NCBI GenBank assembly: GCA_030765235.1
Contig: JAVCCW010000025.1
Coordinates: 240 to 64,239, forward strand
Length of the DNA: 64,000 bases
Reading direction: 5' to 3'
Source of the DNA: Candidatus Gorgyraea atricola
Lineage (GTDB): Bacteria; Omnitrophota; Gorgyraeia; Gorgyraeales; Gorgyraeaceae
The first letter of the stretch is position 1, and each line of letters begins with the position of its first letter. Shown piece by piece: positions 3,245 through 50,981 of this stretch. Under the pieces are notes generated by a model, which saw nothing but the letters and a program-made list of their open reading frames with translations, had not been told where the DNA came from and made no database searches. A program made the position numbers and the translations under genes.

Positions 3245-3280
3245 AAAATTATTCTATTAAAAAGATGCTTGAACTAGTCA

Positions 3281-3391: not shown

Positions 3392-3404
3392 CCGATAAAA
3401 CCCC

Positions 3405-3433: not shown

Positions 3434-3437
3434 TTAA

Positions 3438-4346: not shown

Positions 4347-4391
4347 CTTTCCTCCTTGACCATCCTGATTTTTCTTCTATAATATAACGAC

Positions 4392-9169: not shown

Positions 9170-9261
9170 CCCCCTTCCCAATAAGCCATATTTGTGGTAT
9201 AATATACTTGTATGAGCATCTCAACCAGGCCCTTGAGAAAGGGTGGTTTTTTGGGTGGATT
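9170..9261 (+). promoter_or_regulatory. Conserved promoter/leader module of paralog P2 (extended -10 TGgTATAAT at 9195-9203)
   Basis: Aligns with 1536-1621. Confidence 0.55.
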
Positions 9262-27314: not shown

Positions 27315-27336
27315 GTAGGTCACACTTCAGTGTGAC
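27315..27336 (+). repeat. REP-A element, partial copy 3 (gtaggtcacacttcagtgtgac), preceded by hairpin ggcagatttcaatctgcc (27268-27285)
   Basis: Matches the second hairpin of REP-A with a few substitutions. Confidence 0.55.
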
Positions 27337-27355
27337 AATCCCTAACAGAGGATAT

Positions 27356-30964: not shown

Positions 30965-31347
30965 CAAAATACGAAGGCTTACAGACAAAGGTTCGCAAGT
31001 TAAGAACACCTAAAATAGAGGTGTGGCGCAATCAGTATGCGGACAAGGATTATGTTGTGATGCTCGAGAATCCGGAATTTACATGTGTTTGCCCTAAGAC
31101 AGGTTTGCCTGATTTTGCAAATATCACGATTCAGTATAAGCCTGATAAATGGTGCGTGGAACTCAAGTCCTTTAAGCTATACATGATTTCTTACAGGGAT
31201 GTCGGCATATTCCACGAGCATGTAGTAAATAGGGTCATGGATGATCTTGTTGCATCATGCAAGCCAAGATGGCTGTATATTAAAGGTGAGTTCAATGTGC
31301 GCGGAGGAATCAAGACCACAGTTACATCAGAATATAAAAGGAGTTAA
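30961..31347 (+). CDS. queF: NADPH-dependent 7-cyano-7-deazaguanine reductase (type I QueF)
   Basis: ...VCPKTGLPDFA...ELKSFKLYM... QueF motifs. Confidence 0.85.
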   Translation: MTKYEGLQTKVRKLRTPKIEVWRNQYADKDYVVMLENPEFTCVCPKTGLPDFANITIQYKPDKWCVELKSFKLYMISYRDVGIFHEHVVNRVMDDLVASCKPRWLYIKGEFNVRGGIKTTVTSEYKRS

Positions 31348-31349
31348 TC

Positions 31350-33459: not shown

Positions 33460-33659
33460 TCACTCCTGCCCCGCCAGGCTGGCAGGCCTTCAAAAAGACG
33501 CTCGGCCGCCCCAGCGAGGCGGCCTTCGCTCATTGTAATTTTTTGCTCGTCCCGCCCTTTTGACTTTGTCAAAAGGGCGGGACACCATGCCCGCAAAAAA
33601 TTACGATGCTTTTTTCAGACCTACCAGCCCGCCGGGGCAGGAGCGAGATCCAGTTGAGA

Positions 33660-33745
33660 TTAGTTGGGCAGGGGAGTATAATGATAAAAGACAACCTTGG
33701 ACATTCCGACATAAGGACAACGCAGATATATTTACAGGCTGTTCC
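33660..33745 (+). pseudogene. C-terminal remnant of a tyrosine recombinase / phage-type integrase (...IMIKDNLGHSDIRTTQIYLQAV...)
   Basis: LGHSxIxTTQIY with the catalytic Tyr is the signature tail of tyrosine integrases; no N-terminal or catalytic core is found upstream, only a repeat cluster. Confidence 0.6.
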
Positions 33746-33818
33746 AAGGATAAAGAGTAAAGAGATAAAGAAGATTTTTGATAGGTGGAAGCAAAGGAAG
33801 GATAGGCGAAAAGTAGTT

Positions 33819-34364
33819 ATGATAGAAGTACCCGAGTATCTAAAAAAATTATTAGAAATAGAAGAAAAGGTAAAGTTGAAAAGATACTGCAATGATATAA
33901 TCGTAACACAGGAAGATTTTGTAAAATTAATAACCAATTGTTATAAAATTGGTTATCTTCACCAAATCAAACATCACGACTTTGTGTCTTCTCATCTTCA
34001 TCCTTCAGAAAAAGAGAAAGACGCATTAGCTTCAGTTACAGTTGGAGAAAGAATTACAGGAGATGCTAAAAAGTTTATGAATAAAATTTCTCAAATCTTC
34101 AAAGAACGCAGATATCTTGTTGCCCATATATTTTTTAACGAAAAGAAATGGCATATGTTCTACTTTGACCAAAGAGACGCAGAAAGTCAAAGGAAAAACC
34201 ATTGGAAAAAAGGGGCTCACATTCATTTCGTGAATTATTTATGGCCGCAGTATGATTTGAATAAATTATGGGAAATATTTGATATGGCTAATGCATCTGC
34301 CGGGGGTAAATTACATATCAAGTTTGAAGGGCAAGATTATGATAGAATTAATTCAACTATTTAA
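33819..34364 (+). CDS. Hypothetical protein, candidate cargo of a degraded integrative element
   Basis: ORF in frame with, and fused to, the integrase remnant; internal ATG at 33819 (MIEVPEYLKK...); no recognisable domain. Confidence 0.4.
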   Translation: MIEVPEYLKKLLEIEEKVKLKRYCNDIIVTQEDFVKLITNCYKIGYLHQIKHHDFVSSHLHPSEKEKDALASVTVGERITGDAKKFMNKISQIFKERRYLVAHIFFNEKKWHMFYFDQRDAESQRKNHWKKGAHIHFVNYLWPQYDLNKLWEIFDMANASAGGKLHIKFEGQDYDRINSTI

Positions 34365-37395: not shown

Positions 37396-37426
37396 CTAGA
37401 TTCAAAAGAAAAAGGAAATTTTTTCC

Positions 37427-37455
37427 TTGACTAAATACTCTATTTCGTAGATAAT
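37427..37455 (+). promoter_or_regulatory. Sigma70-like promoter of gdhA (TTGACT-17-GATAAT)
   Basis: Read directly. Confidence 0.5.
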
Positions 37456-37467
37456 ATATTATACAAT

Positions 37468-37553
37468 TTGATACAAAGGTGTATCAAGCATGGATAGAAT
37501 TAGGTCAGGACAAAGGTGTTCTAGGTAAAGAATAGGAACACCTTTTTTATTTT
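37468..37553 (+). promoter_or_regulatory. ANTAR-type dual-hexaloop RNA motif overlapping an intrinsic terminator in the gdhA leader. Hairpin 1 ttgatac-AAAGGT-gtatcaa (37468-37487). Hairpin 2 aggac-AAAGGT-gttct (37507-37522). Terminator aaaggtgttc...gaacaccttt + T-tract (37512-37553).
   Basis: Both hexaloops are AAAGGU (A1, G4); hairpin 2 is the 5' arm of a 10-bp terminator stem followed by ttttttatttt; the SD aaggagg and ATG follow. Confidence 0.6.
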
Positions 37554-37566: not shown

Positions 37567-38904
37567 ATGCAGAAGAAAATTAAAGACTTTATGGAGCTGG
37601 TTGTAAAGAAGAATCCTGGCGAGATAGAATTTCACCAGGCAGTGCAGGAAGTTGTAGAGTCAGTAATGCCATTTATTGAAAAAAATCCCAAGTATCGGGA
37701 TGCAAAGATACTCGAGAGGATCATTGAGCCAGAGAGAGTACTGATGTTCCGGGTACCATGGCAGGATGATAAGGGCGAGGTCCAGGTAAATAGAGGATTT
37801 CGCATAGAGATGAATAGTGCACTCGGCCCTTATAAAGGAGGCTTGAGGCTTCATCCGAGCGTATATATTGGGATCTTGAAGTTCCTGGCATTTGAGCAGG
37901 TGTTTAAGAACAGTTTGACCACGCTTCCTATGGGCGGCGGCAAAGGCGGTTCTGACTTTGACCCAAAGGGTAAGTCAGATAACGAGGTAATGAGATTCTG
38001 CCAGAGTTTTATGACAGAGCTGCAGCGCCATATCGGCCCAAACACAGATGTGCCAGCAGGAGATATAGGTGTAGGTGGTCGTGAGATAGGATTTATGTTC
38101 GGGCAGTACAAAAGGCTTCGCAATGAGTTTACAGGCATACTTACAGGCAAGGCCTTAAACTGGGGTGGAAGCTTGATAAGGCCAGAGGCAACGGGTTATG
38201 GCTGCGTATATTTTGCTGAAGAGATGTTAAAGACCAGGGGTGAATCTTTTAAAGGAAAGATCTGCGCTATTTCTGGTGCAGGCAATGTCGCGCAGTACAC
38301 TGTTGAAAAACTTCTCCAGCTAGGCGCAAAGTCAGTCACGCTCTCAGACTCCGGCGGGTACATCTATGATCCAGATGGAATAAGCGAGCAGAAGTTAGAG
38401 TTTGTGATGAAGCTAAAGAATGTACGTCGTGGCAGGATCAAGGAATACGCCGCGAAGTACAATTGTAAATATGTTGAAGGCAAGCGGCCGTGGGAAGTGA
38501 AGTGCGATTGCGCATTTCCGTCTGCTACGCAGAATGAAATACACGAGTCCGATGCTAAGCACCTTGTTAAAAATGGTTGCATGCTGGTTGCAGAGGGCGC
38601 GAACATGCCTACTGCGCCAGAAGCAATAAAGGTATTCCAGAAGGCAAAGATCCTGTATGGACCTGGCAAGGCATCAAATGCAGGAGGCGTTGCCACGAGT
38701 GGTTTAGAGATGTCGCAGAATAGCTTGAGGCTATCCTGGACAAGGGAAGAAGTGGACGGTAGACTGCATGATATAATGATCAAGATCCACGAAACTTGTG
38801 TTAAATACGGAAAACAAGGAAATGTTGTTGACTATGTAAAAGGCGCAAACCTTGGGGGTTTTGTAAAAGTAGCTGATGCAATGCTGGATCAGGGTTTGGT
38901 CTAA
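37567..38904 (+). CDS. gdhA: NADP-specific glutamate dehydrogenase
   Basis: ...KGGLRLHPSV..., GGGKGGSDFDPKGKSD, ...GAGNVAQY... motifs. Confidence 0.9.
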   Translation: MQKKIKDFMELVVKKNPGEIEFHQAVQEVVESVMPFIEKNPKYRDAKILERIIEPERVLMFRVPWQDDKGEVQVNRGFRIEMNSALGPYKGGLRLHPSVYIGILKFLAFEQVFKNSLTTLPMGGGKGGSDFDPKGKSDNEVMRFCQSFMTELQRHIGPNTDVPAGDIGVGGREIGFMFGQYKRLRNEFTGILTGKALNWGGSLIRPEATGYGCVYFAEEMLKTRGESFKGKICAISGAGNVAQYTVEKLLQLGAKSVTLSDSGGYIYDPDGISEQKLEFVMKLKNVRRGRIKEYAAKYNCKYVEGKRPWEVKCDCAFPSATQNEIHESDAKHLVKNGCMLVAEGANMPTAPEAIKVFQKAKILYGPGKASNAGGVATSGLEMSQNSLRLSWTREEVDGRLHDIMIKIHETCVKYGKQGNVVDYVKGANLGGFVKVADAMLDQGLV

Positions 38905-38944: not shown

Positions 38945-38990
38945 TTTGCAATGGGGCGTTCTGAATAAGGGCGCCCCTTTCGCTTTTTTA
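38945..38990 (+). terminator. Intrinsic terminator after gdhA (gggcg...cgccc hairpin followed by a T-tract)
   Basis: ggggcgttctgaataagggcgcccctttcgctttttta. Confidence 0.5.
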
Positions 38991-39047
38991 GGCATTTACT
39001 CGGAACGTGCTTCGTGCTATAATGGGCCGTTAAAAAGGGGGTAAGTT

Positions 39048-42000
39048 GTGCCAAAGATCCAAGACATCAACAAGGTGCTGATTATAGGTTCTGGCCCGAT
39101 CGTGATAGGCCAGGCGTGCGAGTTTGACTATTCAGGGACACAGGCGTGCAAAGCATTGCGCGCTGCAGGATATAAGATCGTGCTTGTAAACTCTAACCCA
39201 GCTACAATTATGACAGATCCTGGAATGGCTGATGTCACCTATATAGAGCCGCTTAACGTTGAAAGAATTACCAGTATTATTGAAAAGGAAAGGCCAGACG
39301 CGCTTTTACCAAATCTTGGCGGGCAGACCGGGCTGAACCTATCCAGCGAGCTATCAAAAAAAGGCATTCTTAAGAAATTCGGCTGTAGGATCATAGGCGT
39401 GCAGCCAGATGCTATTGAGAGGGGCGAGGATAGGCTAGCATTTAAAGAGACAATGAAAAAGCTGGGCATCCCCATGCCAAAGAGTGAGCTTGCATATTCT
39501 GTTACAGAGGCTAAAAAAATTGCTCATAGTCTAGGTTATCCTATTATTATCAGGCCTGCATATACCATGGGCGGGACAGGTGGTGGAGCAGTATTTAATG
39601 ACGAAGAACTTGAGGTAATAGCTGCAAGAGGCATATCAGTGAGTCTCATTGGTCAGATCCTTGTTGAGGAGTCTGTTCTTGGCTGGGAAGAGTTAGAGCT
39701 TGAGGTAGTAAGGGATAGAGAGTCGAATAAGATCACAGTTTGTTTTATAGAAAATATTGACCCAATGGGCGTTCATACAGGAGATTCTTTTTGCTCTGCC
39801 CCTATGCTCACAGTGGAAAAAGAGATACAAAAGAAGCTTCAGGATTATTCCTATAAGATAGTTGATGCGATCGGCGTTATTGGCGGCACAAATGTTCAGT
39901 TTGCGCGAAAACCTAAAGACGATAGAGTGGTTGTAATAGAGATCAACCCAAGAACATCGCGTTCATCAGCCTTGGCAAGTAAGGCAACAGGTTTTCCGAT
40001 CGCGCTTGTATCATCCATGCTCGCAGGCGGGGATCTTTTAAGAGATATCCCTTACTGGCGCGACGGCACACTGGATAAATATACTCCTTCAGGAGATTAT
40101 GTGGTAATAAAATTTGCGCGCTGGGCGTTTGAAAAATTCAAGGGCATAAAAGACCAGCTTGGCACGCAGATGAGGGCTGTGGGCGAGGTAATGAGTATTG
40201 GCAAGACGTATAAAGAGGCATTTCAAAAGGCAATAAGGAGTCTTGAGAGAAAACGCTATGGTCTTGGTTTTGCTAAAAATTTCAACGAGCTTTCCCTGGA
40301 TGAATTAAGAAAGCTTCTTGCGTATCCCACGTCTGAAAGACAGTTTATTATGTATGAGGCGCTTAGAAAAGGCGCGAGCGTGGATGAGCTATATGATAAG
40401 ACATGCATACATAGATATTTTATCACGCAGATGAAAGAGCTTGTGGAGTTAGAAGAAGAGATTCTGAAATATAAAAGTAAGAAGCTCCCGGATGATATGC
40501 TCATAAAGGCAAAGGAAGATGGTTTTTCAGATAAATACCTGAGCCAGATTTTAGGTGTTAGTGAGAAAGAGATTCGCGAGAGACGTCTTAAGCTTGGCAA
40601 GACAGAGGCATGGCATGCGGTTCCTGTGAGCGGCGCAGAAAATGCAGCTTATTATTATTCGACTTACAGGGCGCCGGATAAGGTCAGTGTATCGTCTAAT
40701 AAAAAGATAATGATACTCGGTGGCGGGCCAAATAGGATCGGCCAGGGGATAGAGTTTGATTATTGCTGCTGTCATGCTGCATTTGCGCTCAGGGATCTGG
40801 GCTACGAGAGCATAATGGTCAATTGTAACCCTGAGACAGTTTCAACAGACTATGATACATCCGATAAACTTTATTTTGAGCCTTTGACTGTCGAAGATGT
40901 ATTGAGTATTTACAATAAAGAGAAGCCAGAAGGTGTGATCGTGCAGTTCGGCGGACAGACACCTCTTAATATTGCAAAAGAATTAGAGGATGCAGGTGTA
41001 AAAATACTTGGCACCTCTGTTGAAAGCATTGATCTTGCAGAGGATAGAGAGAATTTTGCTAAGGTAATGAAGAAGATGGATATTCCACAGCCAGAGAGTG
41101 GCATGGCGAGTACGCTCGAGCAGGCTTTGAAGATTGCAGAGAGAATTGGATACCCGCTTGTTGTAAGGCCTTCATATGTCTTGGGTGGAAGAGGCATGGA
41201 GATTGTCTATGATGAGGAGATGCTAAGAGATTATGTAAAGGCAGCAGTTGATGTATCTCCTGACAGGCCGATTCTCATAGATAAGTTCTTAGAAGATGCT
41301 GTAGAGGTAGAGGCAGATGCTATTTCAGACGGAGAGGATGTGTATATTCCGTCGATTATGGAGCACATAGAAGAGGCAGGCATACATTCTGGAGACTCAG
41401 CCTGCGTTATTCCTCCAAAGACAATACCTAAAAAACACATAGATACTATCTCTAGCTACACGCAAAAGATCGCGCAAAAGTTAAAGGTCGTGGGCCTTAT
41501 GAATATACAATATGCGATTGCAAAGGATAAGGTCTATGTCCTGGAGGCAAATCCCAGGGCGTCAAGGACTGTTCCTATAGTATCAAAAGTAGCTGGTATT
41601 TCCATGGCGAGGATAGCGACAGAGGTTATGCTTGGCAAGAAAATAAAGGACATGAATCTTAAGCCAAAGAAATACAAGCACTATGGCGTAAAAGAGGCTG
41701 TGTTCCCATTTTACATGTTTCAGGAAGTGGATCCCGTACTGGGTCCTGAGATGCGTTCTACAGGAGAGGTCATGGGCCTTGCTGATTCAGCAGGACTGGC
41801 GTATTTCAAAGCGCAAGAGGCAGCTGGCTTAAGACTTCCTACAGAAGGCACAGTACTTGTGACAGTCGCTGATAAGGATAAGAAGAAAAACATTGCTACG
41901 GCAGTAAAAAAACTAAAGGAACTTGGCCTTAAAGTAGTGACAACAGAAGGCACAAAGAAATTTTTGGCCAAACACGGTATTGAAGCAGAACTTATTAAAA

Positions 42001-42251
42001 AGACACATGAGGGAAGACCGAATATCATAGATGCTATTAACAATAAAGAGATAAAGCTTATTATCAATACGCCTGCTGGAAAGACCGCGGCATATGATGA
42101 TTCGTATATTCGTAAGAATGCGATCAAGCATAAGATCCCGTATATCACGACACCAGCGGCAGCTGTTGCAGTAGCGGATGGCATAAAGTCTTATCTTGAG
42201 AACAAGGGCGATGTAAAATCGCTGCAGCAATATCATTCGGAAATAACATAA
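39048..42251 (+). CDS. carB: Carbamoyl-phosphate synthase large subunit (GTG start)
   Basis: Two ATP-grasp halves and an MGS-like C-terminal domain; 1067 aa; promoter tgcTATAAT about 25 nt upstream. Confidence 0.9.
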   Translation: MPKIQDINKVLIIGSGPIVIGQACEFDYSGTQACKALRAAGYKIVLVNSNPATIMTDPGMADVTYIEPLNVERITSIIEKERPDALLPNLGGQTGLNLSSELSKKGILKKFGCRIIGVQPDAIERGEDRLAFKETMKKLGIPMPKSELAYSVTEAKKIAHSLGYPIIIRPAYTMGGTGGGAVFNDEELEVIAARGISVSLIGQILVEESVLGWEELELEVVRDRESNKITVCFIENIDPMGVHTGDSFCSAPMLTVEKEIQKKLQDYSYKIVDAIGVIGGTNVQFARKPKDDRVVVIEINPRTSRSSALASKATGFPIALVSSMLAGGDLLRDIPYWRDGTLDKYTPSGDYVVIKFARWAFEKFKGIKDQLGTQMRAVGEVMSIGKTYKEAFQKAIRSLERKRYGLGFAKNFNELSLDELRKLLAYPTSERQFIMYEALRKGASVDELYDKTCIHRYFITQMKELVELEEEILKYKSKKLPDDMLIKAKEDGFSDKYLSQILGVSEKEIRERRLKLGKTEAWHAVPVSGAENAAYYYSTYRAPDKVSVSSNKKIMILGGGPNRIGQGIEFDYCCCHAAFALRDLGYESIMVNCNPETVSTDYDTSDKLYFEPLTVEDVLSIYNKEKPEGVIVQFGGQTPLNIAKELEDAGVKILGTSVESIDLAEDRENFAKVMKKMDIPQPESGMASTLEQALKIAERIGYPLVVRPSYVLGGRGMEIVYDEEMLRDYVKAAVDVSPDRPILIDKFLEDAVEVEADAISDGEDVYIPSIMEHIEEAGIHSGDSACVIPPKTIPKKHIDTISSYTQKIAQKLKVVGLMNIQYAIAKDKVYVLEANPRASRTVPIVSKVAGISMARIATEVMLGKKIKDMNLKPKKYKHYGVKEAVFPFYMFQEVDPVLGPEMRSTGEVMGLADSAGLAYFKAQEAAGLRLPTEGTVLVTVADKDKKKNIATAVKKLKELGLKVVTTEGTKKFLAKHGIEAELIKKTHEGRPNIIDAINNKEIKLIINTPAGKTAAYDDSYIRKNAIKHKIPYITTPAAAVAVADGIKSYLENKGDVKSLQQYHSEIT

Positions 42252-42252: not shown

Positions 42253-43788
42253 ATGTTCAAACGCGTCGTTACAAAAAAAATAAGTTTTGACAACGAAAAA
42301 TACCTCTCAGAGCAGACCAAGGAGATCCTCTCCAGGGTCAAAAAATTCGACAACAAGCTCTATCTGGAATTCGGAGGTAAGATATGTTTTGATTACCATG
42401 CCGCAAGGGTGTTGCCGGGCTATGACCCGAATGTCAAGATGCGACTTCTTGAAAAGCTTAAAGATTATACTGAGATAATTGTAAGCGTGTATGCAAAAGA
42501 TATTGAACAGGGTCGAGTGAGAGGAGATTACGGCATAACATATGACCTTGCTACATTAAAGTTAATAGATGATCTGAGGGCGTGGAACCTTAATGTTACA
42601 TCTGTTATACTCACGAGGTTTAATAACGAGCCAGCCGCAGTTAAGTTTAAACGCAGACTTGAAAAGTTAGGGCTTAAGGTCTATAAGCATGTAGAGATAA
42701 AAGGCTATCCGCATGACATTGAAACAATAGTAAGCGCTGGCGGTTATGGGAAAAATGATTATATCGAGACAAAAAAACCTATAGTTGTCATGACTGCGCC
42801 TGGTCCAGGAAGCGGGAAGCTCGCCACATGTCTTTCTCAGCTTTATCATGATCACGTAAAGGGAATAAATTCAGGCTACGCAAAGTTCGAGACATTCCCC
42901 ATATGGAACCTGACGCTTAATCATCCTGTGAACATTGCTTATGAAGCCGCAACAGTTGATCTGGCTGATTTTAATCTGATCGACCCATTTCATCTCGAAA
43001 GATACAAAGAGGAAACAATAAATTATAACCGCGATGTCGACGCATTCCCCATATTAAGGAATATTATCCATAAGATCACAGGCTCCAGCGACAGTTATTA
43101 TAATTCACCGACAGATATGGGTGTTAATAGGGCTGGTTTTGGCATAATAGATGATGAAGGCACTCGTGTGGCTGCAAAAGAAGAGATAATCCGAAGATAC
43201 TTTCGCCATAATCTGGAATTTGCAATTGGTACCGGCACCAAAGAAGAGGTTGAGCGCTCAGTTGCGATCATGGATAAGGCAGGTGTTAAAGTTGAAGATA
43301 GATCTGTAGTTCTTCCTGCCAGAAAATCAGCAGAGGATTGCAGAAAAAAGGGCAAGGGCAATAAAGGCTATTACTGCGGCGCTGCGATCGAGCTCAGCGA
43401 CGGTAAGATCGTGACGGGTAAGAATTCTCCTGTTATGCATGCGGCATCCGCAGCTATTATAAATGCGATAAAACATCTTGCAGGTATTGGCGATAAAGTA
43501 CATATACTCAAGCCAGAGGTCATGAGCGATCTATCTAAATTGAAAAAAGATATATTAAGAATGAGTTCAGAAAGTTTAACCCTGGATGAAATATTAGTAG
43601 CGTTATCTATAAGCGCACATACAGATAAAAACGCAAAAAAAGCCCTGTCCATGCTCAAAGACTTGAGTGGATGCGAACTTCACAATACGCACCTTCCTAC
43701 GCCCGGAGATGAAGCAGGACTCAGGAGACTTGGCATAAATTTCACAACAGACGCAATTCCATCGTCGAGCTTGTTTTTTAATTACTAA
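42253..43788 (+). CDS. UPF0371 / DUF1846-family protein
   Basis: ...LYLEFGGKICFDYHAARVLPGYDPN... matches the conserved N-terminal block of UPF0371 proteins as recalled; not verified. Confidence 0.55.
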   Translation: MFKRVVTKKISFDNEKYLSEQTKEILSRVKKFDNKLYLEFGGKICFDYHAARVLPGYDPNVKMRLLEKLKDYTEIIVSVYAKDIEQGRVRGDYGITYDLATLKLIDDLRAWNLNVTSVILTRFNNEPAAVKFKRRLEKLGLKVYKHVEIKGYPHDIETIVSAGGYGKNDYIETKKPIVVMTAPGPGSGKLATCLSQLYHDHVKGINSGYAKFETFPIWNLTLNHPVNIAYEAATVDLADFNLIDPFHLERYKEETINYNRDVDAFPILRNIIHKITGSSDSYYNSPTDMGVNRAGFGIIDDEGTRVAAKEEIIRRYFRHNLEFAIGTGTKEEVERSVAIMDKAGVKVEDRSVVLPARKSAEDCRKKGKGNKGYYCGAAIELSDGKIVTGKNSPVMHAASAAIINAIKHLAGIGDKVHILKPEVMSDLSKLKKDILRMSSESLTLDEILVALSISAHTDKNAKKALSMLKDLSGCELHNTHLPTPGDEAGLRRLGINFTTDAIPSSSLFFNY

Positions 43789-43803
43789 CCAGGAGGCTTA
43801 CAC

Positions 43804-45222
43804 ATGAGTGGCATATTTGGAGTAGCAGCAGAGAAGAATTGTACATTGGATCTATTTTATGGGGTTGACTATCATACTCACCTGGGCACAGAGTACGGCG
43901 GAATAGCTGTATCGACAGACAAGAGGATCTACAGGCAGATCCATGACATATCTCAGAGCCAGTTTAAATCCAAGTTTTACGAAGACTATAAAAAATTCGG
44001 AGGAAAGTATGGCATTGGCGTAATAAGCGATTCTGACGCGCAGCCCATGTTTTTAAATGCCAAATTCGGATCGTTTGCAATATGCATGACAGGTCTTATA
44101 GAAAATACAGGACAGCTTATAAAGGAGCTGCACAAAAGAGGCCATTCTTTTAGCGAGACAGAAGGCGGGTCTTCAAATAGCGTCGAGGTGGTGGCAAAAC
44201 TCATAAGCGAGGGAGAAGATTTTGTAAGTGGTATTGAGAATATGTCTAGCAAGATCATAGGTTCTGCCAGCGTACTTTTACTTTGTAAAGACGGTATATA
44301 TGCGGCAAGAGACAGATTTGGGTATACGCCACTTGTTGTAGGAAAAAGAGGAAATGATTTTGCTGTTTGTTCAGAGTCATGCGCTTTTCCTAACACGGAT
44401 TTCAAGATCCAGAAATTTCTTTCACCTGGCGAGATAGTTTTAGTGAATGATAAGGGCGTGAAACAGGTAAGAGGCCCGAAAGACGTAAATCAGATATGCT
44501 CATTTTTATGGATATATACGGGATTTCCAGCCTCTACTTATGAAGGCGTAGGTGTTGAGACAGTAAGGGAAAGATGTGGCAGGACTTTAGCAAAGCGTGA
44601 CAAGGATATAGAAGTGGATGTTATTTCCGGCATTCCAGATTCAGGCGTTGCGCATGCGATCGGCTATAGCATGGAGTCGAAAAAACCATATAGGCGGCCA
44701 CTTGTAAAATACACGCCTGGGTACGGTAGAAGCTATACCCCGCCTGTCCAGGAGATAAGGGACCGTGTGGCAAAGATGAAGCTTATACCTGTAAAGGATG
44801 TCATAAATGGGAATAGAATCATTGTGTGCGACGATTCTATTGTAAGAGGGACACAACTTAAGAACTTTGCTATTAATAAGCTCTGGGACAATGGCGCAAA
44901 AGAGATACACGCAAGGCCAGCATGTCCGCCACTGATGTTTCCGTGCAAATTCTGTTTATCCACAAGATCTATCAGTGAGCTCGCAGCGCGCCGAGCAATA
45001 AGGAATATAGAGGGTAAAGATATCGACGATGTCTCGAAATATACAGACGACACCACCCCAGAATACAAGAAGATGATCAAGTGGATTGAAAAAGATATTG
45101 GCGTTACCACACTCCGCTATCAGAGGCTTGATGATATGATAAAAGCAATAGGCCTTCCTCGCGAAAAACTTTGCACCTATTGCTGGAATGGCGAGTGCCG
45201 AGCCAAAGGCAATCTCATTTGA
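43804..45222 (+). CDS. Amidophosphoribosyltransferase (PurF)-like protein with Ser in place of the N-terminal Cys nucleophile
   Basis: N-terminus MSGIFGV... (PurF has MCGIVGI...); PRPP-binding motif IIVCDDSIVRGTQL; C-terminal Cys cluster CPPLMFPCKFC. Confidence 0.7.
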   Translation: MSGIFGVAAEKNCTLDLFYGVDYHTHLGTEYGGIAVSTDKRIYRQIHDISQSQFKSKFYEDYKKFGGKYGIGVISDSDAQPMFLNAKFGSFAICMTGLIENTGQLIKELHKRGHSFSETEGGSSNSVEVVAKLISEGEDFVSGIENMSSKIIGSASVLLLCKDGIYAARDRFGYTPLVVGKRGNDFAVCSESCAFPNTDFKIQKFLSPGEIVLVNDKGVKQVRGPKDVNQICSFLWIYTGFPASTYEGVGVETVRERCGRTLAKRDKDIEVDVISGIPDSGVAHAIGYSMESKKPYRRPLVKYTPGYGRSYTPPVQEIRDRVAKMKLIPVKDVINGNRIIVCDDSIVRGTQLKNFAINKLWDNGAKEIHARPACPPLMFPCKFCLSTRSISELAARRAIRNIEGKDIDDVSKYTDDTTPEYKKMIKWIEKDIGVTTLRYQRLDDMIKAIGLPREKLCTYCWNGECRAKGNLI

Positions 45223-45248
45223 GATCCTTCAGCCCTTTGGGCTTCAGG

Positions 45249-46505
45249 ATGAGCTCTCGGATAAGAATAGAGAAAAAGACTTCCCGAGAGCTCAGTAAAA
45301 TCGTTGTTGTTGGCGGTGGGCCCAGCGCTATGATGGCTGCGATACGCTCTAGCCAGCTAGGCCAGTCCGTAACCCTCCTGGAAAAAAATCCTACTTTAGG
45401 TAAAAAACTTCTCTTAAGCGGCAAAGGCCGTTGTAATCTTACCAATGCGTGTAGTCTGGAAGAATTTCTTGAGAGATTCTCAAAAAGCGGGCCATTCTTA
45501 AGAGATGCTTTTAAGATTTTCTTTAATCAAGAGCTAATGGATTTTTTTGAGGTGAGAGGATTAAAGCTCAAGATAGAGCGGCAAAAAAGGGTCTTTCCTG
45601 TAACTGATGAAGCGGACAGTATCCTTCGAGTGTTAAAGAAAGAACTCTTAGAGAATAAAATTAAGATTATTTATAATACCGCTGTTAATGATATTGTGAT
45701 AAAGAGTGACAAATTTTTGGTTAATTCGATCCTGGCTGATAAGGTAATCCTGGCAACAGGCGGTATCTCTTATGGTTTTACTGGCTCAACAGGCCAAGGC
45801 ATGAAAATAGCTAAAGCGCTAGGCCATCGCATAACTCCTTTAAGGCCAGGTCTTGTGGCATTAGATATAAAAAAGAATTATTCTAAATTCTTGGAGGGTC
45901 TGACATTAAAAAATATACGCCTTCGATTTACCGACGGGAAAAAAGAGATTCTCTCGGATATAGGAGAATTACTTTTTACTAAGACCGGGATCTCAGGTCC
46001 GCTTGTTTTGTCTTTGAGCGGGAAAATAGTGGATTGGCTGGACAAAAAGGGCAGGGTCTATCTCGAAATAGATCTTAAACCTGCGCTATCCCTCGAAAAA
46101 TTAGAAACCAGGCTATTAAGGGAATTCAAGGAGAGCCCCAAAAAGGCTCTCAAAAATACACTTAAAAGTCTTTTGCCTATGAGATTAATCGATGTGTTTT
46201 TGGATATTGCTGGGCTCTTGCCTGATAAAAAAGTTAACCAGGTTACGCAGGATGAGCGAAAAAGAATCGCCATGTTATTAAAGGCCCTGCGCTTTGAGAT
46301 CAAAGGGTCACGCCCCATAAAAGAGGCAATGGTCACACGTGGAGGCGTATCTTTAAAGGACATTGACCCGCGCACTATGCAGTCCCGCATCATTAAGGGC
46401 CTATACTTTGCCGGTGAGATCATAGACATAGACGCAGACACAGGCGGCTTTAACCTACAAGCAGCATTCTCCACAGGCTACCTAGCTGGTCAAACCCTTC
46501 CTTGA
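45249..46505 (+). CDS. FAD-dependent oxidoreductase, HI0933-like (BaiN / aminoacetone-oxidase family)
   Basis: Dinucleotide-binding [16 protein letters not shown]; ...GKGRCNLTN...; C-terminal [16 protein letters not shown]. Confidence 0.8.
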
Positions 46506-46539: not shown

Positions 46540-48291
46540 ATGAAAAATACGTACGATGTTATAGTTATAGGTGCAGGGCATGCTGGGGTGGAGGCGGCTC
46601 TTGTAGCTAACAGGATGAAGGTTAAGACTCTGCTTATTACTATGGATGTGGATAAGATAGGGTATATGTCTTGCAATCCTGCTATTGGTGGCATTGGTAA
46701 GGGCCAGCTGGTAAAGGAGCTGGATGCGTTGGGTGGGGAGATGGCTAAGGCAACGGATTTTAGCGCTATACAGTTTCGTATGCTGAATAAGAAAAAAGGA
46801 CCTGCTGTTTGGTCATCAAGGGCACAGGTGGATCGATCTCTTTATTTAAAGTACATGAAAGATGCAGTAAAAAATATAGATGTTTTAGAAGGCTGCGTGA
46901 CAACTCTTATTATAAAGAATAAAATCGCATGCGGGGTAAAACTTAAAGACGGAAGTTTTATAAAAACCAAGGCAGTTATTCTTACGCCAGGTACATTCTT
47001 AAACGGCGTTATTCACATTGGCCTTGAGCATTTTTCAGGCGGTAGGTTAGGCGATCCAGCGTCTCTGAGCCTTTCAGATAATCTAAGGTCATTAGGTTTT
47101 GATGTATTGCGGCTTAAAACAGGAACCACTGCTCGCTTAGATACAAAGACCATAAAATTTTCTAAAATGAAGAAGCAGCTTGGCGATAATCCTCCAGTCC
47201 CGTTTTCATTCTCAACAAAGAAGATCTCCAGAAAACAACTCCCGTGCTACATTACATATACAAATAAAAAAACGCATGAGATCATCCGCAAAGGCTTGGA
47301 TCGCTCGCCGCTTTATACCGGGAAGATTAAATCCACTGGCGCTAGATATTGTCCGTCAATAGAAGATAAGATAGTACGGTTTAGCGATAGAGATAGACAC
47401 CAGGTATTCCTGGAGCCAGAAGGATTAAAAAAAGATCAGTATTATCCTAATGGAATATCTACGAGCCTGCCACAGGATATACAGCTAAAGATGATTCGGT
47501 CTATCCCTGGGCTTGAAAAGGCAGAAATAAATATACCTGGCTATGGCATAGAATATGATTTTGTAAATCCTACACAGCTAAAGTCAACGCTTGAGACAAA
47601 ACTCATTGAAAATCTTTATCACGCAGGCCAGATCAATGGCACTACTGGTTATGAAGAGGCAGCGGCGCAGGGTTTTATGGCAGGTGTAAACGCGGTGCTT
47701 AAAATAAGAAAAAAAGCACCTTTTATCTTAGATCGTTCACAGGCATATATAGGTGTCCTTATAGATGACCTTGTGACAAGAGGCACGCAGGAACCTTACA
47801 GGATGTTTACATCGCGCGTTGAGCATCGACTTGTCTTAAGGGAAGACAATGCTGATCTAAGGCTGAGTGGAATAGGGCATAATCTAGGCCTTGTGAGTAA
47901 AAAGGACTACGAAAAAGTAGTCTCCAAGAAGATAAATATATCCAATGAGCTTAAAAGGATAAAAAACACAAGAGGTTACTTGCGTACTAGAGGCCTTTCT
48001 AATGAAGAAATGAAGCAAGTAGAGATAGAAGTAAAATATAAAGGTTTTATTGACAGGCAGGCAAAGGAGATCGAGAAGTTTAAGCAAATAGAAAAGATAA
48101 ACATACCAAATAGCTTTAAGTATAAAGGTATACCAGGCCTATCAAAAGAGATCATTGAAAAACTTACCATGGCCAGGCCAATAAATCTTGGCCAGGCCTC
48201 AAGGATCTCAGGCATAACTCCTGTTGCAATCTCAGTTCTAATGGTGTATCTTAAAAGATACAAAGAAACCCTATGCAAAAAGAAACAGTAG
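46540..48291 (+). CDS. mnmG: tRNA uridine 5-carboxymethylaminomethyl modification enzyme MnmG (GidA)
   Basis: [17 protein letters not shown]...; 583 aa. Confidence 0.9.
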
Positions 48292-49814
48292 TAGTCCTGG
48301 ATTTTGGCGCACAGTATAACCAGCTCATAGCCCGTCGTGTAAGAGAATGCAATATATACTGTGTACTTCTGCCTTACAATACTTCACTCGCAAAGATAAA
48401 ATCCCTGAAACCCAGCGCGATTATACTCACAGGTGGACCTTCCAGCGTTACAAGGAAAGGTTCTCCAAAGTGCGATTCAAGGATCTTTGGATTAAATGTC
48501 CCTATCTTGGGTATCTGTTATGGTATGCAGTTAATGGGATATTTGCTTGGTGGTAAAGTAGGAAAGAGTAAGCGCCGAGAATATGGCAATGCAGAGCTTA
48601 TTGTAGATAAAAAAGACAAATTCTATTCAGGCTGGAAAAGAAAAGAAAAGATATGGATGAGTCATGGTGATCAGGTGCTAAGGCTGCCAAAGGGTTTTGT
48701 AAGACTTGCTCATACGAAAAACAGTAAGATCGCCAGCATGTTTCATCCTGAGAAAAAGATTTACGGGGTCCAGTTTCATCCAGAGGTAGTGCATACACCA
48801 AAAGGCATGGTTATTTTTAAGAATTTCCTCTATAAGGTCGCTGGCCTTAAACCAACATGGACGATGAAGTCTTTTGTCAGAGAGGCTATCAAGGATATGC
48901 GGGCGAATGTCAAAAAAGAAAAGGTGGTGCTTGGTTTAAGCGGCGGGGTAGACTCTTCTGTGGCAGCAATTCTTTTGCACAAGGCCATTGGCAAGAAATT
49001 ACACTGCATCTTTGTTGATAATGGAGTATTAAGAAAAGATGAAAAGAGGAATGTTATCGAGATGTTTAGAAGGCATTTTCACATGAATCTTCATGTGATA
49101 GATGCAGAGGAGAGATTCCTGAAGGCCTTGAGGGGAGTAGAAGACCCGGAGAAAAAGCGCAAAACAATAGGAAGGGAATTTATCAGGGTCTTTGAAAAAG
49201 AGGCACATCGTCTTGGAAAGATAAAGTATTTAGCGCAGGGCACACTTTATCCTGATGTGATTGAGAGCGTCTCTGCAAAAGGCGGGCCGTCAGCTACAAT
49301 AAAGACGCACCATAATGTAGGGGGCTTGCCCAAAAAGATGGGGTTTAAGCTCATAGAGCCATTAAAGGATTTGTTCAAGGACGAGGTCAGAAGATTAGGA
49401 AAAGAGCTTAGCTTGAGTGATGAGATGGTGTGGAGACAACCTTTTCCAGGTCCTGGCCTTGCTGTAAGGATCATAGGAGATGTTACAAAGGATCGCTTAG
49501 ATATTCTTCGCGAGGCAGATGCGATCGTGCAGGAAGAGATGAAAAAATACCCTGGCTATAAAAACATCTGGCAGTCATTCGCGGTTTTATTGCCAGTAAA
49601 AAGCGTAGGTGTAATGGGCGATGAAAGGACTTACGAAAACGTCTGTGCCATACGAATAGTCACAAGCCTTGACGCAATGACAGCAGACTGGGCCAAGATC
49701 CCCTACGACATCCTAGGCAAGATCTCCAACCGCATCATAAACGAAGCCTCTGGCATAAATCGAGTAGTCTACGACATCTCCTCCAAACCCCCGTCAACAA
49801 TAGAGTGGGAATAA
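48273..49814 (+). CDS. guaA: GMP synthase (glutamine-hydrolysing)
   Basis: GATase ...ILGICYGMQ...; ATP-PPase LSGGVDSSV; C-terminal ...STIEWE. Confidence 0.9.
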
Positions 49815-49816: not shown

Positions 49817-49856
49817 ATAACTTTACATTTAAAGCAAGACCTTAAATGTAAAGTTA
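49817..49856 (-). repeat. REP-B palindromic element copy 2 (inverted relative to copy 1); bidirectional terminator candidate between the convergent guaA and lpxB genes, containing the lpxB stop codon
   Basis: taactttacatttaa-agcaagacc-ttaaatgtaaagttaa; the loop is the reverse complement of the loop at 9124-9131. Confidence 0.7.
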
Positions 49857-50981
49857 ACTCAGGAATTTTTGGATTAGGTGTGCGGTGCGGTCGGATGCGC
49901 CTGGTGAGCCTAGTTTTTGTTTGACCTGTTTTAGCTCGAGTTTGATTTCGTCCTGGTTTTGGAGTGTTTCTAGAGTTTCTCTTGCTATATTTTTCGCGTT
50001 TACCTGAAACTGTACCAGTTCTGGTACGATCCTTTTTCCTGCCACTACATTTACCAAACCTATATCTGGGATTTTTATCAAATTTCTTGCCAAAAACCAG
50101 GTGATCAGCGATGTCTTGTAGATAATCACCATTGGCTTTTGCATGATGGCTGTTTCGAGCGTGGCGCTTCCAGAAGAGAGGATTACCAAATCAGCTATAT
50201 CCATTATTTCATAGGGCCTGTTTTCGAGTGAATGCGGTTTTATCTTTGAGCGGGCAATAATATTGTTATAAATAGATCTATCCAATTCTTTCCTCCGAGA
50301 AAGTATAAATTCAACATCAGGTAATTTTTCTTTTATGAGCTCGCATGCCTTTAGCATAGAAGGGAGGTGTTTTTCAACCTCTTTTGCGCGAGAACCAGGA
50401 AGGAGCGCAATCTTTTTAGAGTGGTGATTAAGATGCAGGTGCTTTATGGTTTCTTCTTTTTTCCAGCCAGATCTTACTATGTCTAAGAAAGGATGCCCTA
50501 CGAAACTTACCTTTACGCCAGCCTGTTTATATAATTCCTCCTCAAACCCAAATATCACGATCATCTTATCAACGCATTTTTTTATTTCCGCGACTCTCTC
50601 TTTTCCCCACGCCCATATCTGAGGGCTGATGTAATATATTACAGGGATATTTTTTGCTTTCGCCTGTTTTGCGAAACGCATGTTAAATCCTGGGTAGTCT
50701 ACCAGAATAACCGCGTCAGGGCGTCTTGATTCAAGTAGATCGACCAGTTTTTTGAAGAGCTTCTTGAATACGCTGAGATGTTTTATCACCTCTATAAACC
50801 CCACGACTGCGAGCTCGACAATGTCATAGACAATATCGACGCCAGCTTCTTTCATCTTTTTCCCGCCAACGCCGAATATTTCTATGTGGGGATTGAGTGT
50901 TTTAAGGGATCGCGCGAGGTGTGCAGCCTGCAGGTCGCCAGATGCCTCGCCTGCGATGATCATAAGTCGCTTCTTCTTCAT
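49854..50981 (-). CDS. lpxB: Lipid-A-disaccharide synthase
   Basis: MKKKRLMIIAGEASGD... Confidence 0.88.
   Translation of the reverse strand: MKKKRLMIIAGEASGDLQAAHLARSLKTLNPHIEIFGVGGKKMKEAGVDIVYDIVELAVVGFIEVIKHLSVFKKLFKKLVDLLESRRPDAVILVDYPGFNMRFAKQAKAKNIPVIYYISPQIWAWGKERVAEIKKCVDKMIVIFGFEEELYKQAGVKVSFVGHPFLDIVRSGWKKEETIKHLHLNHHSKKIALLPGSRAKEVEKHLPSMLKACELIKEKLPDVEFILSRRKELDRSIYNNIIARSKIKPHSLENRPYEIMDIADLVILSSGSATLETAIMQKPMVIIYKTSLITWFLARNLIKIPDIGLVNVVAGKRIVPELVQFQVNAKNIARETLETLQNQDEIKLELKQVKQKLGSPGASDRTAHLIQKFLS

What the first reader, a model, noticed from the sequence alone, without database searches (positions are those of the whole stretch)
42253..46505. Cluster of a DUF1846/UPF0371 protein, a PurF-like amidotransferase with Cys1 replaced by Ser, and an HI0933-like flavoprotein
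The PurF-like ORF begins MSGIFGV.... Authentic PurF and other class-II (Ntn) glutamine amidotransferases use Cys1 (MCGI...) as the nucleophile. Here the residue is Ser, while the PRPP-binding motif (IIVCDDSIVRGTQL) and a C-terminal Cys cluster are retained. It is flanked, with near-abutting or overlapping reading frames, by a UPF0371 protein of unknown function and a BaiN/HI0933-type FAD oxidoreductase. The overlap between 45171/45249 and the PurF-like stop suggests co-translation. Together they could form an uncharacterised phosphoribosyl-transfer or amination pathway. The canonical purF may lie elsewhere in the genome.
Basis: partly seen in the sequence, partly recalled or inferred. Interest (0 to 1): 0.55.

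Follow-up and report, generated by a model that had tools for sequence, protein, structure and literature searches.

The report
Cysteine-less PurF paralogue beside PyrJ
A relative of the first purine-pathway enzyme that has lost its whole glutamine-splitting site sits in one operon with carB and with PyrJ, a CTP synthase reported to use only ammonia. This suggests the bacterium can make nucleotides directly from ammonia, and the neighbouring flavoprotein is a bystander.

Summary
The three ORFs are real, and Ser2 aligns with the Cys1 nucleophile of PurF. The substitution is not isolated. The whole glutaminase site is gone (Arg26→Leu, 8-residue glutamine loop deleted, Asn102→Thr, Asp127→Ser). 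The PRPP site, flexible-loop Lys/Arg and all four [4Fe-4S] cysteines are kept.

The protein belongs to a large, well-conserved clade ('PurF-prime', motif DYHSHLGT) found in anaerobic bacteria and archaea. Position 2 in that clade is Gly (44/80), Ser (32/80) or Thr, so no nucleophile is conserved there.

Canonical Cys-PurF sits next to PurF-prime in 7 of 80 species. In two Omnitrophota, PurF-prime alone fills the purF slot of an otherwise conserved pur operon. The best reading is a glutamine-independent, ammonia-using PRPP amidotransferase. This was already proposed, untested, for archaeal PurF'.

DUF1846 is no longer of unknown function. A 2024 preprint reports it as PyrJ, an ammonia-only CTP synthase.

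Recurrent neighbours of PurF-prime are carB (9/80), purF, purM and pyrJ (4/80). The HI0933-like flavoprotein is not linked to it: it is absent in a close syntenic relative, and the claimed frame overlap disappears with the correct start.

Whether this genome also has a Cys-PurF could not be determined.

The parts
38953..38977 (+). Terminator-like hairpin after gdhA; marks the upstream end of the operon
   Evidence: 10-bp stem with 7 GC pairs, followed by a T run
38995..39023 (+). Promoter-like site (TTTACT-17-TATAAT, with TG) upstream of carB
   Evidence: a consensus match only
39048..42251 (+). carB, carbamoyl-phosphate synthase large subunit; first gene of the operon; no carA next to it
   Evidence: translation; 67-73% identity to the CarB adjacent to PurF-prime in 8 other species, plus a 55%-identical C-terminal CarB fragment in L056; CPSase_L Pfam domains on the orthologue in L081
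42253..43788 (+). pyrJ (DUF1846/UPF0371), predicted ammonia-dependent CTP synthase
   Evidence: Pfam PF08903 and PF20921; NCBIfam NF010184 722 bits against 631; E 5.5e-150 to S. pneumoniae UPF0371 protein, PDB 7f00; function from bioRxiv 10.1101/2024.09.24.614635
43791..43796 (+). AGGAGG ribosome-binding site of the PurF-prime gene
   Evidence: read directly from the sequence
43804..45222 (+). purF-prime: Cys-less PurF paralogue, 472 aa, with a degenerate Ntn domain and an intact PRTase domain
   Evidence: TIGR01134 217 bits against a cut-off of 350; 1ao0 E 3e-55; AF2 pLDDT 92.6; Foldseek 1ao0 TM 0.83/0.86
43807..43809 (+). Ser2 codon (AGT), at the position of the Cys1 nucleophile
   Evidence: in the family this position is Gly 44, Ser 32, Thr 1 of 80; all Ser codons are AGY
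43867..43890 (+). DYHTHLGT (residues 22-29), the family signature that replaces LxxLQHRGQ of true PurF
   Evidence: D22, Y23 and H26 are at least 90% conserved in A1; Arg26 becomes Leu27
44497..44499 (+). Cys232, predicted [4Fe-4S] ligand (B. subtilis Cys236)
   Evidence: invariant in A1; mapping
44818..44859 (+). PRPP-binding loop IIVCDDSIVRGTQL (residues 339-352)
   Evidence: D343/D344 correspond to B. subtilis D345/D346; [DE]DS[IL]VRGTQ is the most conserved stretch of the family
44944..44946 (+). Cys381, predicted [4Fe-4S] ligand (B. subtilis Cys382)
   Evidence: invariant in A1
45172..45183 (+). C457-x-x-C460, predicted [4Fe-4S] ligands
   Evidence: C460 invariant and C457 at least 90% conserved
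45249..46505 (+). HI0933/aminoacetone-oxidase-family flavoprotein; transcribed with the operon but not functionally linked
   Evidence: TIGR00275 461 bits; absent between purF-prime and mnmG in L081/L082 and present in L085; start codon
46540..48291 (+). mnmG (gidA), a downstream operon member
   Evidence: GIDA Pfam domains on the orthologue
48273..49814 (+). guaA, glutamine-dependent GMP synthase; last gene of the operon; overlaps mnmG by 19 nt
   Evidence: GATase, NAD_synthase and GMP_synt_C domains on the orthologue; GuaA is adjacent to PurF-prime in L071 and L079

Best explanation
ORF 43804-45222 encodes a member of an old, widespread PurF paralogue clade (PurF-prime). In this clade the N-terminal Ntn glutaminase domain is kept as a conserved fold but has lost every catalytic and glutamine-binding residue. 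The phosphoribosyltransferase site and the [4Fe-4S] cluster are intact.

The most likely function is the PurF reaction without glutamine: PRPP + NH3 gives 5-phosphoribosylamine + PPi. It would act as an ammonia-dependent isozyme that supplements or replaces Cys-PurF. In this Omnitrophota lineage the gene has left the pur operon. It is co-transcribed with carB (no adjacent carA) and pyrJ, an ammonia-only CTP synthase. These three gene products could all use free ammonia and so avoid the ATP cost of making glutamine.

Shown: loss of the glutaminase site; retention of the PRTase and Fe-S residues; clade structure; gene contexts. Inferred: the catalytic activity; the use of NH3; any physiological advantage.
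For: (1) Active-site audit against B. subtilis PurF. C1 becomes S2, R26 becomes L27, R72-G79 is deleted, N102 becomes T96 and D127 becomes S126. K305, R311, D345/D346, the SIVRGT loop, the PDS loop and Cys236/382 are all retained. C232, C381 and C460 are invariant, and C457 is at least 90% conserved.
(2) Position 2 is Gly in 44, Ser in 32 and Thr in 1 of 80 species. All Ser codons are AGY, one step from GGY. The position needs a small residue, not a nucleophile.
(3) The fold is PurF over both domains: pLDDT 92.6, 1ao0 TM 0.83/0.86.
(4) It is a distinct clade. PurF-prime proteins are 50-82% identical across phyla and domains but only 27-33% identical to the Cys-PurF encoded next to them. A neighbour-joining bipartition has 25/30 bootstrap support and contains no Cys-type member.
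(5) Synteny series in Omnitrophota. L086/L087/L088 have purB-purSL-LOG-purQ-purF(Cys)-purM-purD-purE. L011 has purQ-purF(Cys)-purF'-purM. L016/L017 have the same operon with purF' alone in the purF slot.
(6) The only recurrent neighbours among 80 species are carB (9), Cys-purF (7), purM (6), pyrJ (4), an aspartate-aminotransferase-like gene (4, identified by reading the sequence only), purL, purB, glnA and guaA. No other Pfam family recurs more than twice.
(7) E. coli PurF with C1S or C1A loses glutamine-dependent activity but keeps NH3-dependent activity (Mei & Zalkin 1989, as cited in PMC3261824).
(8) PyrJ uses ammonia only.
Against: No biochemical data exist for any member of the clade. The N-domain is almost as conserved as the PRTase domain (mean column conservation 0.53 against 0.59). 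It includes new motifs (DYHSH, Cys13), which suggests a function beyond a passive scaffold. That function could be regulatory, or it could bind a different ligand. I could not show that any genome relies on PurF-prime alone, because only +/-10 kb around each gene was visible. glnA also recurs next to the gene, which does not fit a simple 'high-ammonium' regulon. guaA in the same operon keeps its glutaminase domain.
Confidence: 0.58

Rival explanations
1. PurF-prime is a non-catalytic or regulatory partner of canonical PurF. It would form mixed oligomers, with the dead glutaminase domain acting as a sensor (for example of glutamine or nitrogen status) that tunes entry into the purine pathway.
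For: It lies in tandem with or near Cys-PurF in 7 of 80 species. The N-domain is strongly conserved, with a new DYHSH motif. glnA, gdhA and a sigma-54-type regulator (identified only by reading the sequence printed, no family search) occur nearby in Desulfobacterota loci.
Against: All PRTase catalytic residues are invariant or nearly so, which is not expected of a pure regulator. PurF-prime alone occupies the purF slot in the L016/L017 pur operons. In this window it sits far from any purF.
Confidence: 0.17
2. PurF-prime is a catalytic PRTase whose nitrogen or nucleophile does not come from free ammonia. It might receive NH3 from a separate glutaminase subunit (such as PurQ or a CarA-like protein), or it might transfer the phosphoribosyl group to a different acceptor bound by the remodelled N-domain.
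For: purQ lies immediately upstream in L011/L017. carB without carA is adjacent in 9 of 80 species and in the window. The remodelled pocket is conserved.
Against: No glutaminase subunit is a consistent neighbour; the Pfam census of flanking genes shows nothing recurring more than twice. purQ is explained by its usual role with purL. Replacement of purF within a conserved operon argues for the same product.
Confidence: 0.15
3. Ser2 is a working Ntn nucleophile (as in penicillin acylase), and the enzyme is an ordinary glutamine-dependent housekeeping PurF with a tolerated Ser.
For: Ser is strictly conserved in the closest subclade: 119 of 120 homologues at 66-86% identity. A small residue at position 2 allows removal of the initiator Met.
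Against: Gly replaces Ser in most of the clade. The oxyanion Asn, Arg26, the Arg-containing glutamine loop and Asp127 are all lost. E. coli C1S PurF has no glutamine-dependent activity. Cys-PurF coexists with PurF-prime in relatives.
Confidence: 0.03
4. DUF1846, PurF-like and HI0933-like together form one new three-enzyme phosphoribosyl-transfer or amination pathway.
For: The three genes are co-directional and closely spaced in the window. The same trio occurs in L085.
Against: The flavoprotein is absent from the syntenic operon in L081/L082. It is adjacent to PurF-prime in 0 of 80 species. DUF1846 already has a self-sufficient function. The claimed frame overlap is an artefact of the start-codon choice.
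Confidence: 0.03

Closest known systems
Glutamine PRPP amidotransferase PurF, [4Fe-4S] type (B. subtilis; PDB 1ao0, 1gph)
   Same: Two-domain Ntn + type-I PRTase fold (TM 0.83/0.86). PRPP loop, flexible-loop Lys/Arg and four cluster cysteines are conserved. It occurs in pur operons in relatives.
   Different: About 28-30% identity and below the TIGR01134 cut-off. It has no Cys1, no Arg26, no glutamine loop, no oxyanion Asn and no Asp127, so it cannot be a glutamine amidotransferase.
Archaeal PurF' (Brown et al. 2011, Biol Direct 6:63, PMC3261824)
   Same: A PurF paralogue that lacks the N-terminal Cys and is encoded near purF and other pur genes. An ammonia-dependent role was proposed and never tested.
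   Different: The crenarchaeal proteins were described with Ala or Val at position 1. By N-terminus alone they resemble the separate Cys-less FYQQHLGE group seen, but whether that group is the crenarchaeal PurF' was not tested. The window's protein belongs to the DYHSHLGT clade with Gly/Ser/Thr, which spans many bacterial phyla plus Asgard, Thermoplasmatota and Altiarchaeota.
PyrJ (Spd_0310, DUF1846), the ammonia-only CTP synthase of S. pneumoniae
   Same: The window's upstream gene is a full-length orthologue. Conceptually, PyrJ is to PyrG as PurF-prime would be to PurF.
   Different: PyrJ is unrelated in fold to PyrG, whereas PurF-prime is a degenerate paralogue of PurF. PyrJ was reported mostly in Firmicutes and Actinobacteria. 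Here it is in Omnitrophota, with further adjacent copies in MAGs labelled Pirellulales and Vicinamibacterales.
E. coli PurF Cys1Ser / Cys1Ala mutants (Mei & Zalkin 1989, cited in PMC3261824)
   Same: The loss of Cys1 abolishes glutamine use but leaves NH3-dependent PRA synthesis. This is the direct precedent for the proposed activity.
   Different: Those are laboratory point mutants with the rest of the glutamine site intact. Here the site has been remodelled and conserved over long evolutionary time.

Membership tests
Canonical PurF (glutamine PRPP amidotransferase, TIGR01134 / EC 2.4.2.14) | N-terminal Cys nucleophile (Cys1 after Met or propeptide removal) | tested here: not met
   Ser2 aligns with Cys1 of 1ao0. 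No upstream extension is possible: an in-frame TAA lies 5 codons upstream.
Canonical PurF (glutamine PRPP amidotransferase, TIGR01134 / EC 2.4.2.14) | Glutamine-binding and oxyanion residues (Arg26, the Arg72/73 loop, Asn101/102-Gly, Asp127) | tested here: not met
   Leu27, an 8-residue deletion, Thr96-Gly97 and Ser126. The same losses occur across the clade.
Canonical PurF (glutamine PRPP amidotransferase, TIGR01134 / EC 2.4.2.14) | Score at or above the curated equivalog cut-off | tested here: not met
   217.1 bits against a cut-off of 350
Canonical PurF (glutamine PRPP amidotransferase, TIGR01134 / EC 2.4.2.14) | Two-domain Ntn + PRTase fold with PRPP loop and catalytic flexible loop | tested here: met
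   AF2 pLDDT 92.6; 1ao0 TM 0.83/0.86; K302, R309, D343/D344 and SIVRGT retained
Canonical PurF (glutamine PRPP amidotransferase, TIGR01134 / EC 2.4.2.14) | Four Cys ligands of the [4Fe-4S] cluster (B. subtilis type) | tested here: met
   C232, C381, C457 and C460 are conserved. Cluster binding itself was not tested.
PurF' / Cys-less PurF paralogues | PurF homologue that lacks the N-terminal Cys as a conserved family trait, not a one-off mutation | tested here: met
   119 of 120 close homologues start (M/V)SG. 80 species have Gly, Ser or Thr. The clade bipartition has 25/30 bootstrap support.
PurF' / Cys-less PurF paralogues | Coexists with, and clusters near, a Cys-PurF and other pur genes | tested here: inconclusive
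   Met in relatives: 7 of 80 species are adjacent to Cys-PurF, and L011/L016/L017 lie inside pur operons. Not determinable for this genome. The 64-kb window has no Cys-PurF, and accession-block matching failed.
PurF' / Cys-less PurF paralogues | Ammonia-dependent PRA synthesis | not testable with these tools
   A hypothesis only (Brown et al. 2011). No assay has been reported in the searched literature.
PyrJ / DUF1846 (UPF0371) ammonia-dependent CTP synthase | Both DUF1846 domains, full length, above the NCBIfam equivalog cut-off | tested here: met
   PF08903 E 1.8e-159 and PF20921 E 7.3e-50; NF010184 722 bits against 631
PyrJ / DUF1846 (UPF0371) ammonia-dependent CTP synthase | Close similarity to the characterised S. 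pneumoniae protein | tested here: met
   E 5.5e-150 over residues 8-501 against PDB 7f00. That entry is the S. pneumoniae UPF0371 structure, which I take to be SPD_0310 of PMC9238395.
PyrJ / DUF1846 (UPF0371) ammonia-dependent CTP synthase | UTP to CTP conversion with NH3 and not with glutamine | not testable with these tools
   Shown only for Spd_0310 in a preprint
HI0933-like / aminoacetone-oxidase-family flavoprotein (TIGR00275) | Family HMM above cut-off, with the FAD Rossmann motif | tested here: met
   461.5 bits against 183.8; PF03486 and PF22780; PDB 2i0z and 4cnj at E about 1e-77
HI0933-like / aminoacetone-oxidase-family flavoprotein (TIGR00275) | Conserved linkage to the PurF-like gene (needed for the proposed three-gene system) | tested here: not met
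   Adjacent in 0 of 80 species; absent in syntenic L081/L082

The most novel reading that the evidence does not exclude
PurF-prime is the purine-pathway counterpart of PyrJ: a dedicated ammonia-dependent phosphoribosylamine synthase. Its former glutaminase pocket, now carrying the conserved Asp-Tyr-His-x-His motif, would have been rebuilt to capture and deprotonate NH4+ and feed the pre-existing interdomain channel. Together with CarB acting without CarA, and with PyrJ, it would form a glutamine-independent nucleotide-synthesis module. Energy-limited anaerobes (Omnitrophota, Planctomycetota, Desulfobacterota, Asgard archaea) would use it to bypass glutamine synthetase. In some lineages it would have fully replaced Cys-PurF.
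Probability: 0.25. Interest if true: 0.7.

Novelty: new variant of a known kind. Interest (0 to 1): 0.5.

Why it matters
Every database name returned for these proteins was 'amidophosphoribosyltransferase', which implies a glutamine-dependent enzyme. Metabolic reconstructions would therefore treat them as ordinary PurF.

If the clade uses ammonia, three things follow. The first committed step of purine synthesis has a second, glutamine-independent form that is widespread in uncultured anaerobes. The recently reported PyrJ gains a purine-pathway partner. Nitrogen and energy budgets inferred for these organisms would need revising.

The in-operon replacement series found here (Cys-PurF only, then both, then PurF-prime only) points to specific genomes and proteins for a simple biochemical test. 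That test would settle a hypothesis left open since 2011.

Tried and rejected
(1) I tried to show that Cys-PurF and PurF-prime occur in the same MAG by comparing NCBI protein-accession blocks, using 13 PurF-prime and 13 Cys-PurF accessions. No blocks matched. This is uninformative, not negative.
(2) An exact look-up of the window's own protein found no record, so the source genome could not be retrieved.
(3) A homologue search seeded with a Bacteroidales PurF-prime, intended to find cultured or model organisms with fitness data, returned only MAGs.
(4) Literature searches for an ammonia-dependent PurF, 'PurF-like', 'purF2' and Cys-less paralogues found only Brown et al. 2011.
(5) Rfam scans found no riboswitch or leader in the operon. 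The only hit was a sub-threshold P11 match upstream of gdhA.
(6) A Pfam census of 89 otherwise unassigned flanking genes found no further recurrent partner; the maximum was 2 members per family.
(7) I considered CarB as a physical partner that supplies or receives nitrogen. There is no evidence beyond adjacency.
(8) I considered conserved Cys13 as a relocated nucleophile. I rejected it as unsupported, because it is not universal (Ala, Val, Ser or Gly in some members) and the glutamine-binding residues are missing anyway.
The proximity of the DYHSH motif to the N-terminus and the openness of the channel could not be examined.

Full report
**1. What is in the sequence**

The window comes from an organism related to Candidatus Omnitrophota. 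The closest homologues of the PurF-like protein (66-86% identity) are nearly all from Omnitrophota MAGs.

Genes on the + strand run in this order:
- gdhA, 37567-38904
- carB, 39048-42251
- a DUF1846 protein, 42253-43788
- the PurF-like ORF, 43804-45222
- an HI0933-like flavoprotein, 45249-46505
- mnmG, 46540-48291
- guaA, 48273-49814

A strong terminator-like hairpin follows gdhA, and a promoter-like site precedes carB. No comparable + strand terminator appears before the end of guaA. carB to guaA is therefore probably one transcription unit. Further upstream lie glnA and a GAF-ANTAR regulator. The window also carries prs and hisG. It has no carA, no pyrG and no canonical purF.

**2. The observation**

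Family assignments are secure. The PurF-like protein aligns with B. subtilis PurF (1ao0) at E 3e-55, with S2-G3 opposite C1-G2.

The start codon cannot be moved upstream. The pyrJ stop codon is in the same frame five codons upstream. AGGAGG lies 7 nt before the ATG. 119 of the 120 nearest homologues begin (M/V)SG.

Two details are wrong. First, the 'overlap' with the flavoprotein depends on a TTG start. A 65%-identical homologue begins at residue 41 of that long ORF, so the real start is the ATG at 45249 and the genes do not overlap. Second, Cys-to-Ser is only one of several changes.

**3. The glutaminase site is gone and the transferase site is intact**

Mapping onto B. subtilis numbering gives these glutaminase-site changes:
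- Cys1 becomes Ser2
- Arg26 becomes Leu27
- the Arg72-Gly79 loop, which carries the arginine that binds glutamine, is deleted
- Asn102 (oxyanion hole) becomes Thr96
- Asp127 becomes Ser126

On the transferase side, these are all retained: Lys305 and Arg311 of the flexible loop, Asp345/Asp346, the SIVRGT phosphate loop, the PDS loop and the cluster ligands. In a 22-sequence family alignment C232, C381 and C460 are invariant, and C457 is at least 90% conserved.

An AlphaFold model is confident (pLDDT 92.6, pTM 0.91). Its best structural matches are PurF over both domains (1ao0 TM 0.83/0.86).

**4. It is a family, not a mutant**

An exhaustive search of 1.84 billion representative proteins found 886 with E below 1e-30. 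Among the best 150, those sharing the signature DYHSHLGT (in place of LQHRGQE) with a complete N-terminus have Gly (32), Ser (21), Thr (5) or Ala (1) at position 2. Three others have atypical N-termini.

In 80 species-level genomes the counts are Gly 44, Ser 32 and Thr 1. Every Ser codon is AGY, one transition from GGY. The position therefore needs a small residue, which also permits removal of the initiator Met. It does not need a nucleophile. Ser is fixed only in the subclade that contains the window.

The clade forms a single neighbour-joining bipartition (25/30 bootstraps) with no Cys-type member inside it. Its members are 50-82% identical across bacterial phyla and archaea, but only 27-33% identical to the canonical PurF encoded beside them.

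The N-domain is almost as conserved as the PRTase domain (0.53 against 0.59). It is not a decaying remnant.

Hosts include Omnitrophota, Planctomycetota, Desulfobacterota, Elusimicrobiota, Acidobacteriota, Gemmatimonadota, Verrucomicrobiota, Bacteroidales, and Asgard, Thermoplasmatota and Altiarchaeota archaea.

**5. Gene context**

Among the 80 loci, the recurrent neighbours of PurF-prime are:
- carB, 9 loci
- canonical Cys-purF, 7 loci
- purM, 6 loci
- pyrJ, 4 loci
- an aspartate-aminotransferase-like gene, 4 loci (identified by reading the sequence only)
- purL, purB and glnA, 3 loci each
- guaA, 2 loci

A Pfam census of the remaining 89 flanking proteins found nothing that recurs more than twice. 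For single-copy genes, chance adjacency in 80 genomes of a few thousand genes each would be about 0.1 or fewer events (my estimate). The links to carB, purF and pyrJ are therefore real. The pyrJ link occurs in three different arrangements, which argues for selection rather than inherited synteny.

The most informative result is a series within Omnitrophota:
- L086, L087 and L088 carry purB-(purC)-purSL-LOG-purQ-purF(Cys)-purM-purD-purE-sua5-rpiB-glyA.
- L011 carries purQ-purF(Cys)-purF'-purM.
- L016 and L017 carry the same operon with purF' alone in the purF slot.

A paralogue that replaces purF in place, within a conserved biosynthetic operon, is most simply explained by the same reaction product.

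**6. DUF1846 is PyrJ**

A 2024 preprint (bioRxiv 10.1101/2024.09.24.614635) reports that S. pneumoniae Spd_0310, a DUF1846 protein, is synthetically lethal with pyrG. The defect is rescued by cytidine. The purified protein converts UTP to CTP with ammonia but not with glutamine. The authors named it PyrJ.

The window's protein exceeds the NCBIfam equivalog cut-off. It matches the S. pneumoniae structure 7f00 at E 5.5e-150 over its full length.

The preprint places PyrJ mostly in Firmicutes and Actinobacteria. Its presence here, and next to PurF-prime in MAGs labelled Pirellulales and Vicinamibacterales, extends that range. An earlier paper had called the same protein a hemin-binding protein.

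**7. The flavoprotein**

The flavoprotein is a typical member of the TIGR00275 / aminoacetone-oxidase (HI0933, BaiN-type) family. A relative with a 79%-identical PurF-prime has the same operon, glnA-DUF3108-gdhA-carB-pyrJ-purF'-mnmG-guaA-lpxB, without it. An 81% relative has it. It is adjacent to PurF-prime in none of the 80 species. It is an insertion in one sublineage, not part of a system.

**8. Mechanism**

The best-supported reading (confidence about 0.58) is PRPP + NH3 giving phosphoribosylamine, without glutamine. There are three precedents. E. coli C1S and C1A PurF lose glutamine use but keep ammonia use (Mei & Zalkin 1989, cited in PMC3261824). Brown et al. proposed exactly this role for crenarchaeal PurF' in 2011 without testing it. 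PyrJ shows that ammonia-only isozymes of nucleotide amidotransferases exist.

The operon carB (no carA nearby in the window or in any of the 9 carB-linked loci, by reading the neighbouring sequences) - pyrJ - purF' fits the theme of using ammonia directly. This part is inference.

The strongly conserved N-domain and its new DYHSH motif are not explained by a passive scaffold. They leave room for a regulatory role, or for a rebuilt ammonium-capture site, which is speculative.

Rival explanations are a regulatory pseudoenzyme partner of PurF, a transferase fed by another glutaminase or using another acceptor, and a working Ser nucleophile. The last is effectively excluded.

**9. Novelty and limits**

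Cys-less PurF paralogues have been noticed before in archaea. This is therefore a variant of a known but uncharacterised kind, not a new category.

What this analysis adds:
- the size and coherence of the DYHSHLGT clade
- the Gly/Ser interchange at position 2
- the in-operon replacement series
- the recurrent links to carB and to PyrJ

What could not be done:
- establish whether this genome, or L016/L017, also has a Cys-PurF
- inspect the model's coordinates
- find any experimental data on the clade

Noticed in passing
window 42253-45222: pyrJ and purF-prime are in the same reading frame, separated only by the pyrJ stop codon (TAA, 43786-43788) and five codons that contain the AGGAGG site. A single stop-codon loss would fuse them. 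One database homologue (P0345, 592 aa, Pfam PF24390 plus GATase_7) already carries an extra N-terminal domain.
   Followed up: no
PurF-prime residue 13 (window 43840-43842) and family alignment A1: A cysteine at position 13 (the '..K(D/N)C..' motif at the start of helix 1) is conserved in at least 85% of the clade. It has no counterpart in canonical PurF. A few members have Ala, Val, Ser or Gly instead. Its role is unknown.
   Followed up: partly
window 39048-42251 and loci L003, L037, L049, L055-L057, L059, L061, L073: carB lies next to PurF-prime in 9 of 80 species and in the window. By my reading of the neighbouring sequences, carA is not beside carB in any of these. In Desulfobacterota loci glnA, gdhA and a sigma-54 NifA-type regulator lie nearby. 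It was not possible to check whether carA is absent from these genomes.
   Followed up: partly
L016:9308-9922, L017:4785-5420, L086:8571-9227, L087:8409-9056: A LOG / 'lysine decarboxylase-like' family protein (PF03641, LDcluster4) is a conserved member of the Omnitrophota pur operon, between purL and purQ. This placement is unusual and may point to a nucleotide phosphoribohydrolase linked to purine synthesis.
   Followed up: no
window 27332-28669: One 445-aa ORF combines an LpxC domain and a FabA/FabZ-like dehydratase domain (an LpxC-FabZ fusion). It sits inside an lpxD-lpxC/fabZ-lpxA-lpxI cluster. lpxB lies on the opposite strand at 49854-50981.
   Followed up: no
window 1-4400: This stretch has low GC (0.34-0.35 against about 0.43 elsewhere). 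It contains a partial tRNA match (1302-1354, model positions 9-63), a 540-aa ORF with no Pfam match (1622-3244) and a Fic/DOC protein (3438-4346). This looks like the remnant of an integrated element.
   Followed up: no
window 30257-32681: A GAF-ANTAR antiterminator-type regulator lies immediately upstream of glnA, about 7 kb before the carB operon. Close relatives have queF in that position instead (L081).
   Followed up: no
window 37416-37542: There is a sub-threshold Rfam match to the Pseudomonas sRNA P11 (29 bits against a gathering score of 70, E 0.005) in the gdhA upstream region. It is probably a chance match.
   Followed up: no
P0179-P0263 among the, 22 representatives: Other Cys-less PurF-like groups exist outside the DYHSHLGT clade. 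One is a group starting MAG/MVG with the motif FYQQHLGE, which may correspond to the crenarchaeal PurF' of Brown et al. 2011. Loss of the PurF glutaminase may therefore have happened more than once.
   Followed up: partly
L034:7460-9856: In an Asgard (Hermodarchaeota) locus the gene upstream of PurF-prime looks like a HypF carbamoyltransferase (one HypF_C_2 match in the census, and my reading of the sequence). Canonical PurF lies convergently downstream.
   Followed up: no
window 9208-10170, 33606-34364, 60037-60696, 60983-62434: Four sizeable ORFs (320, 252, 219 and 483 aa) have no Pfam match at the thresholds used.
   Followed up: no
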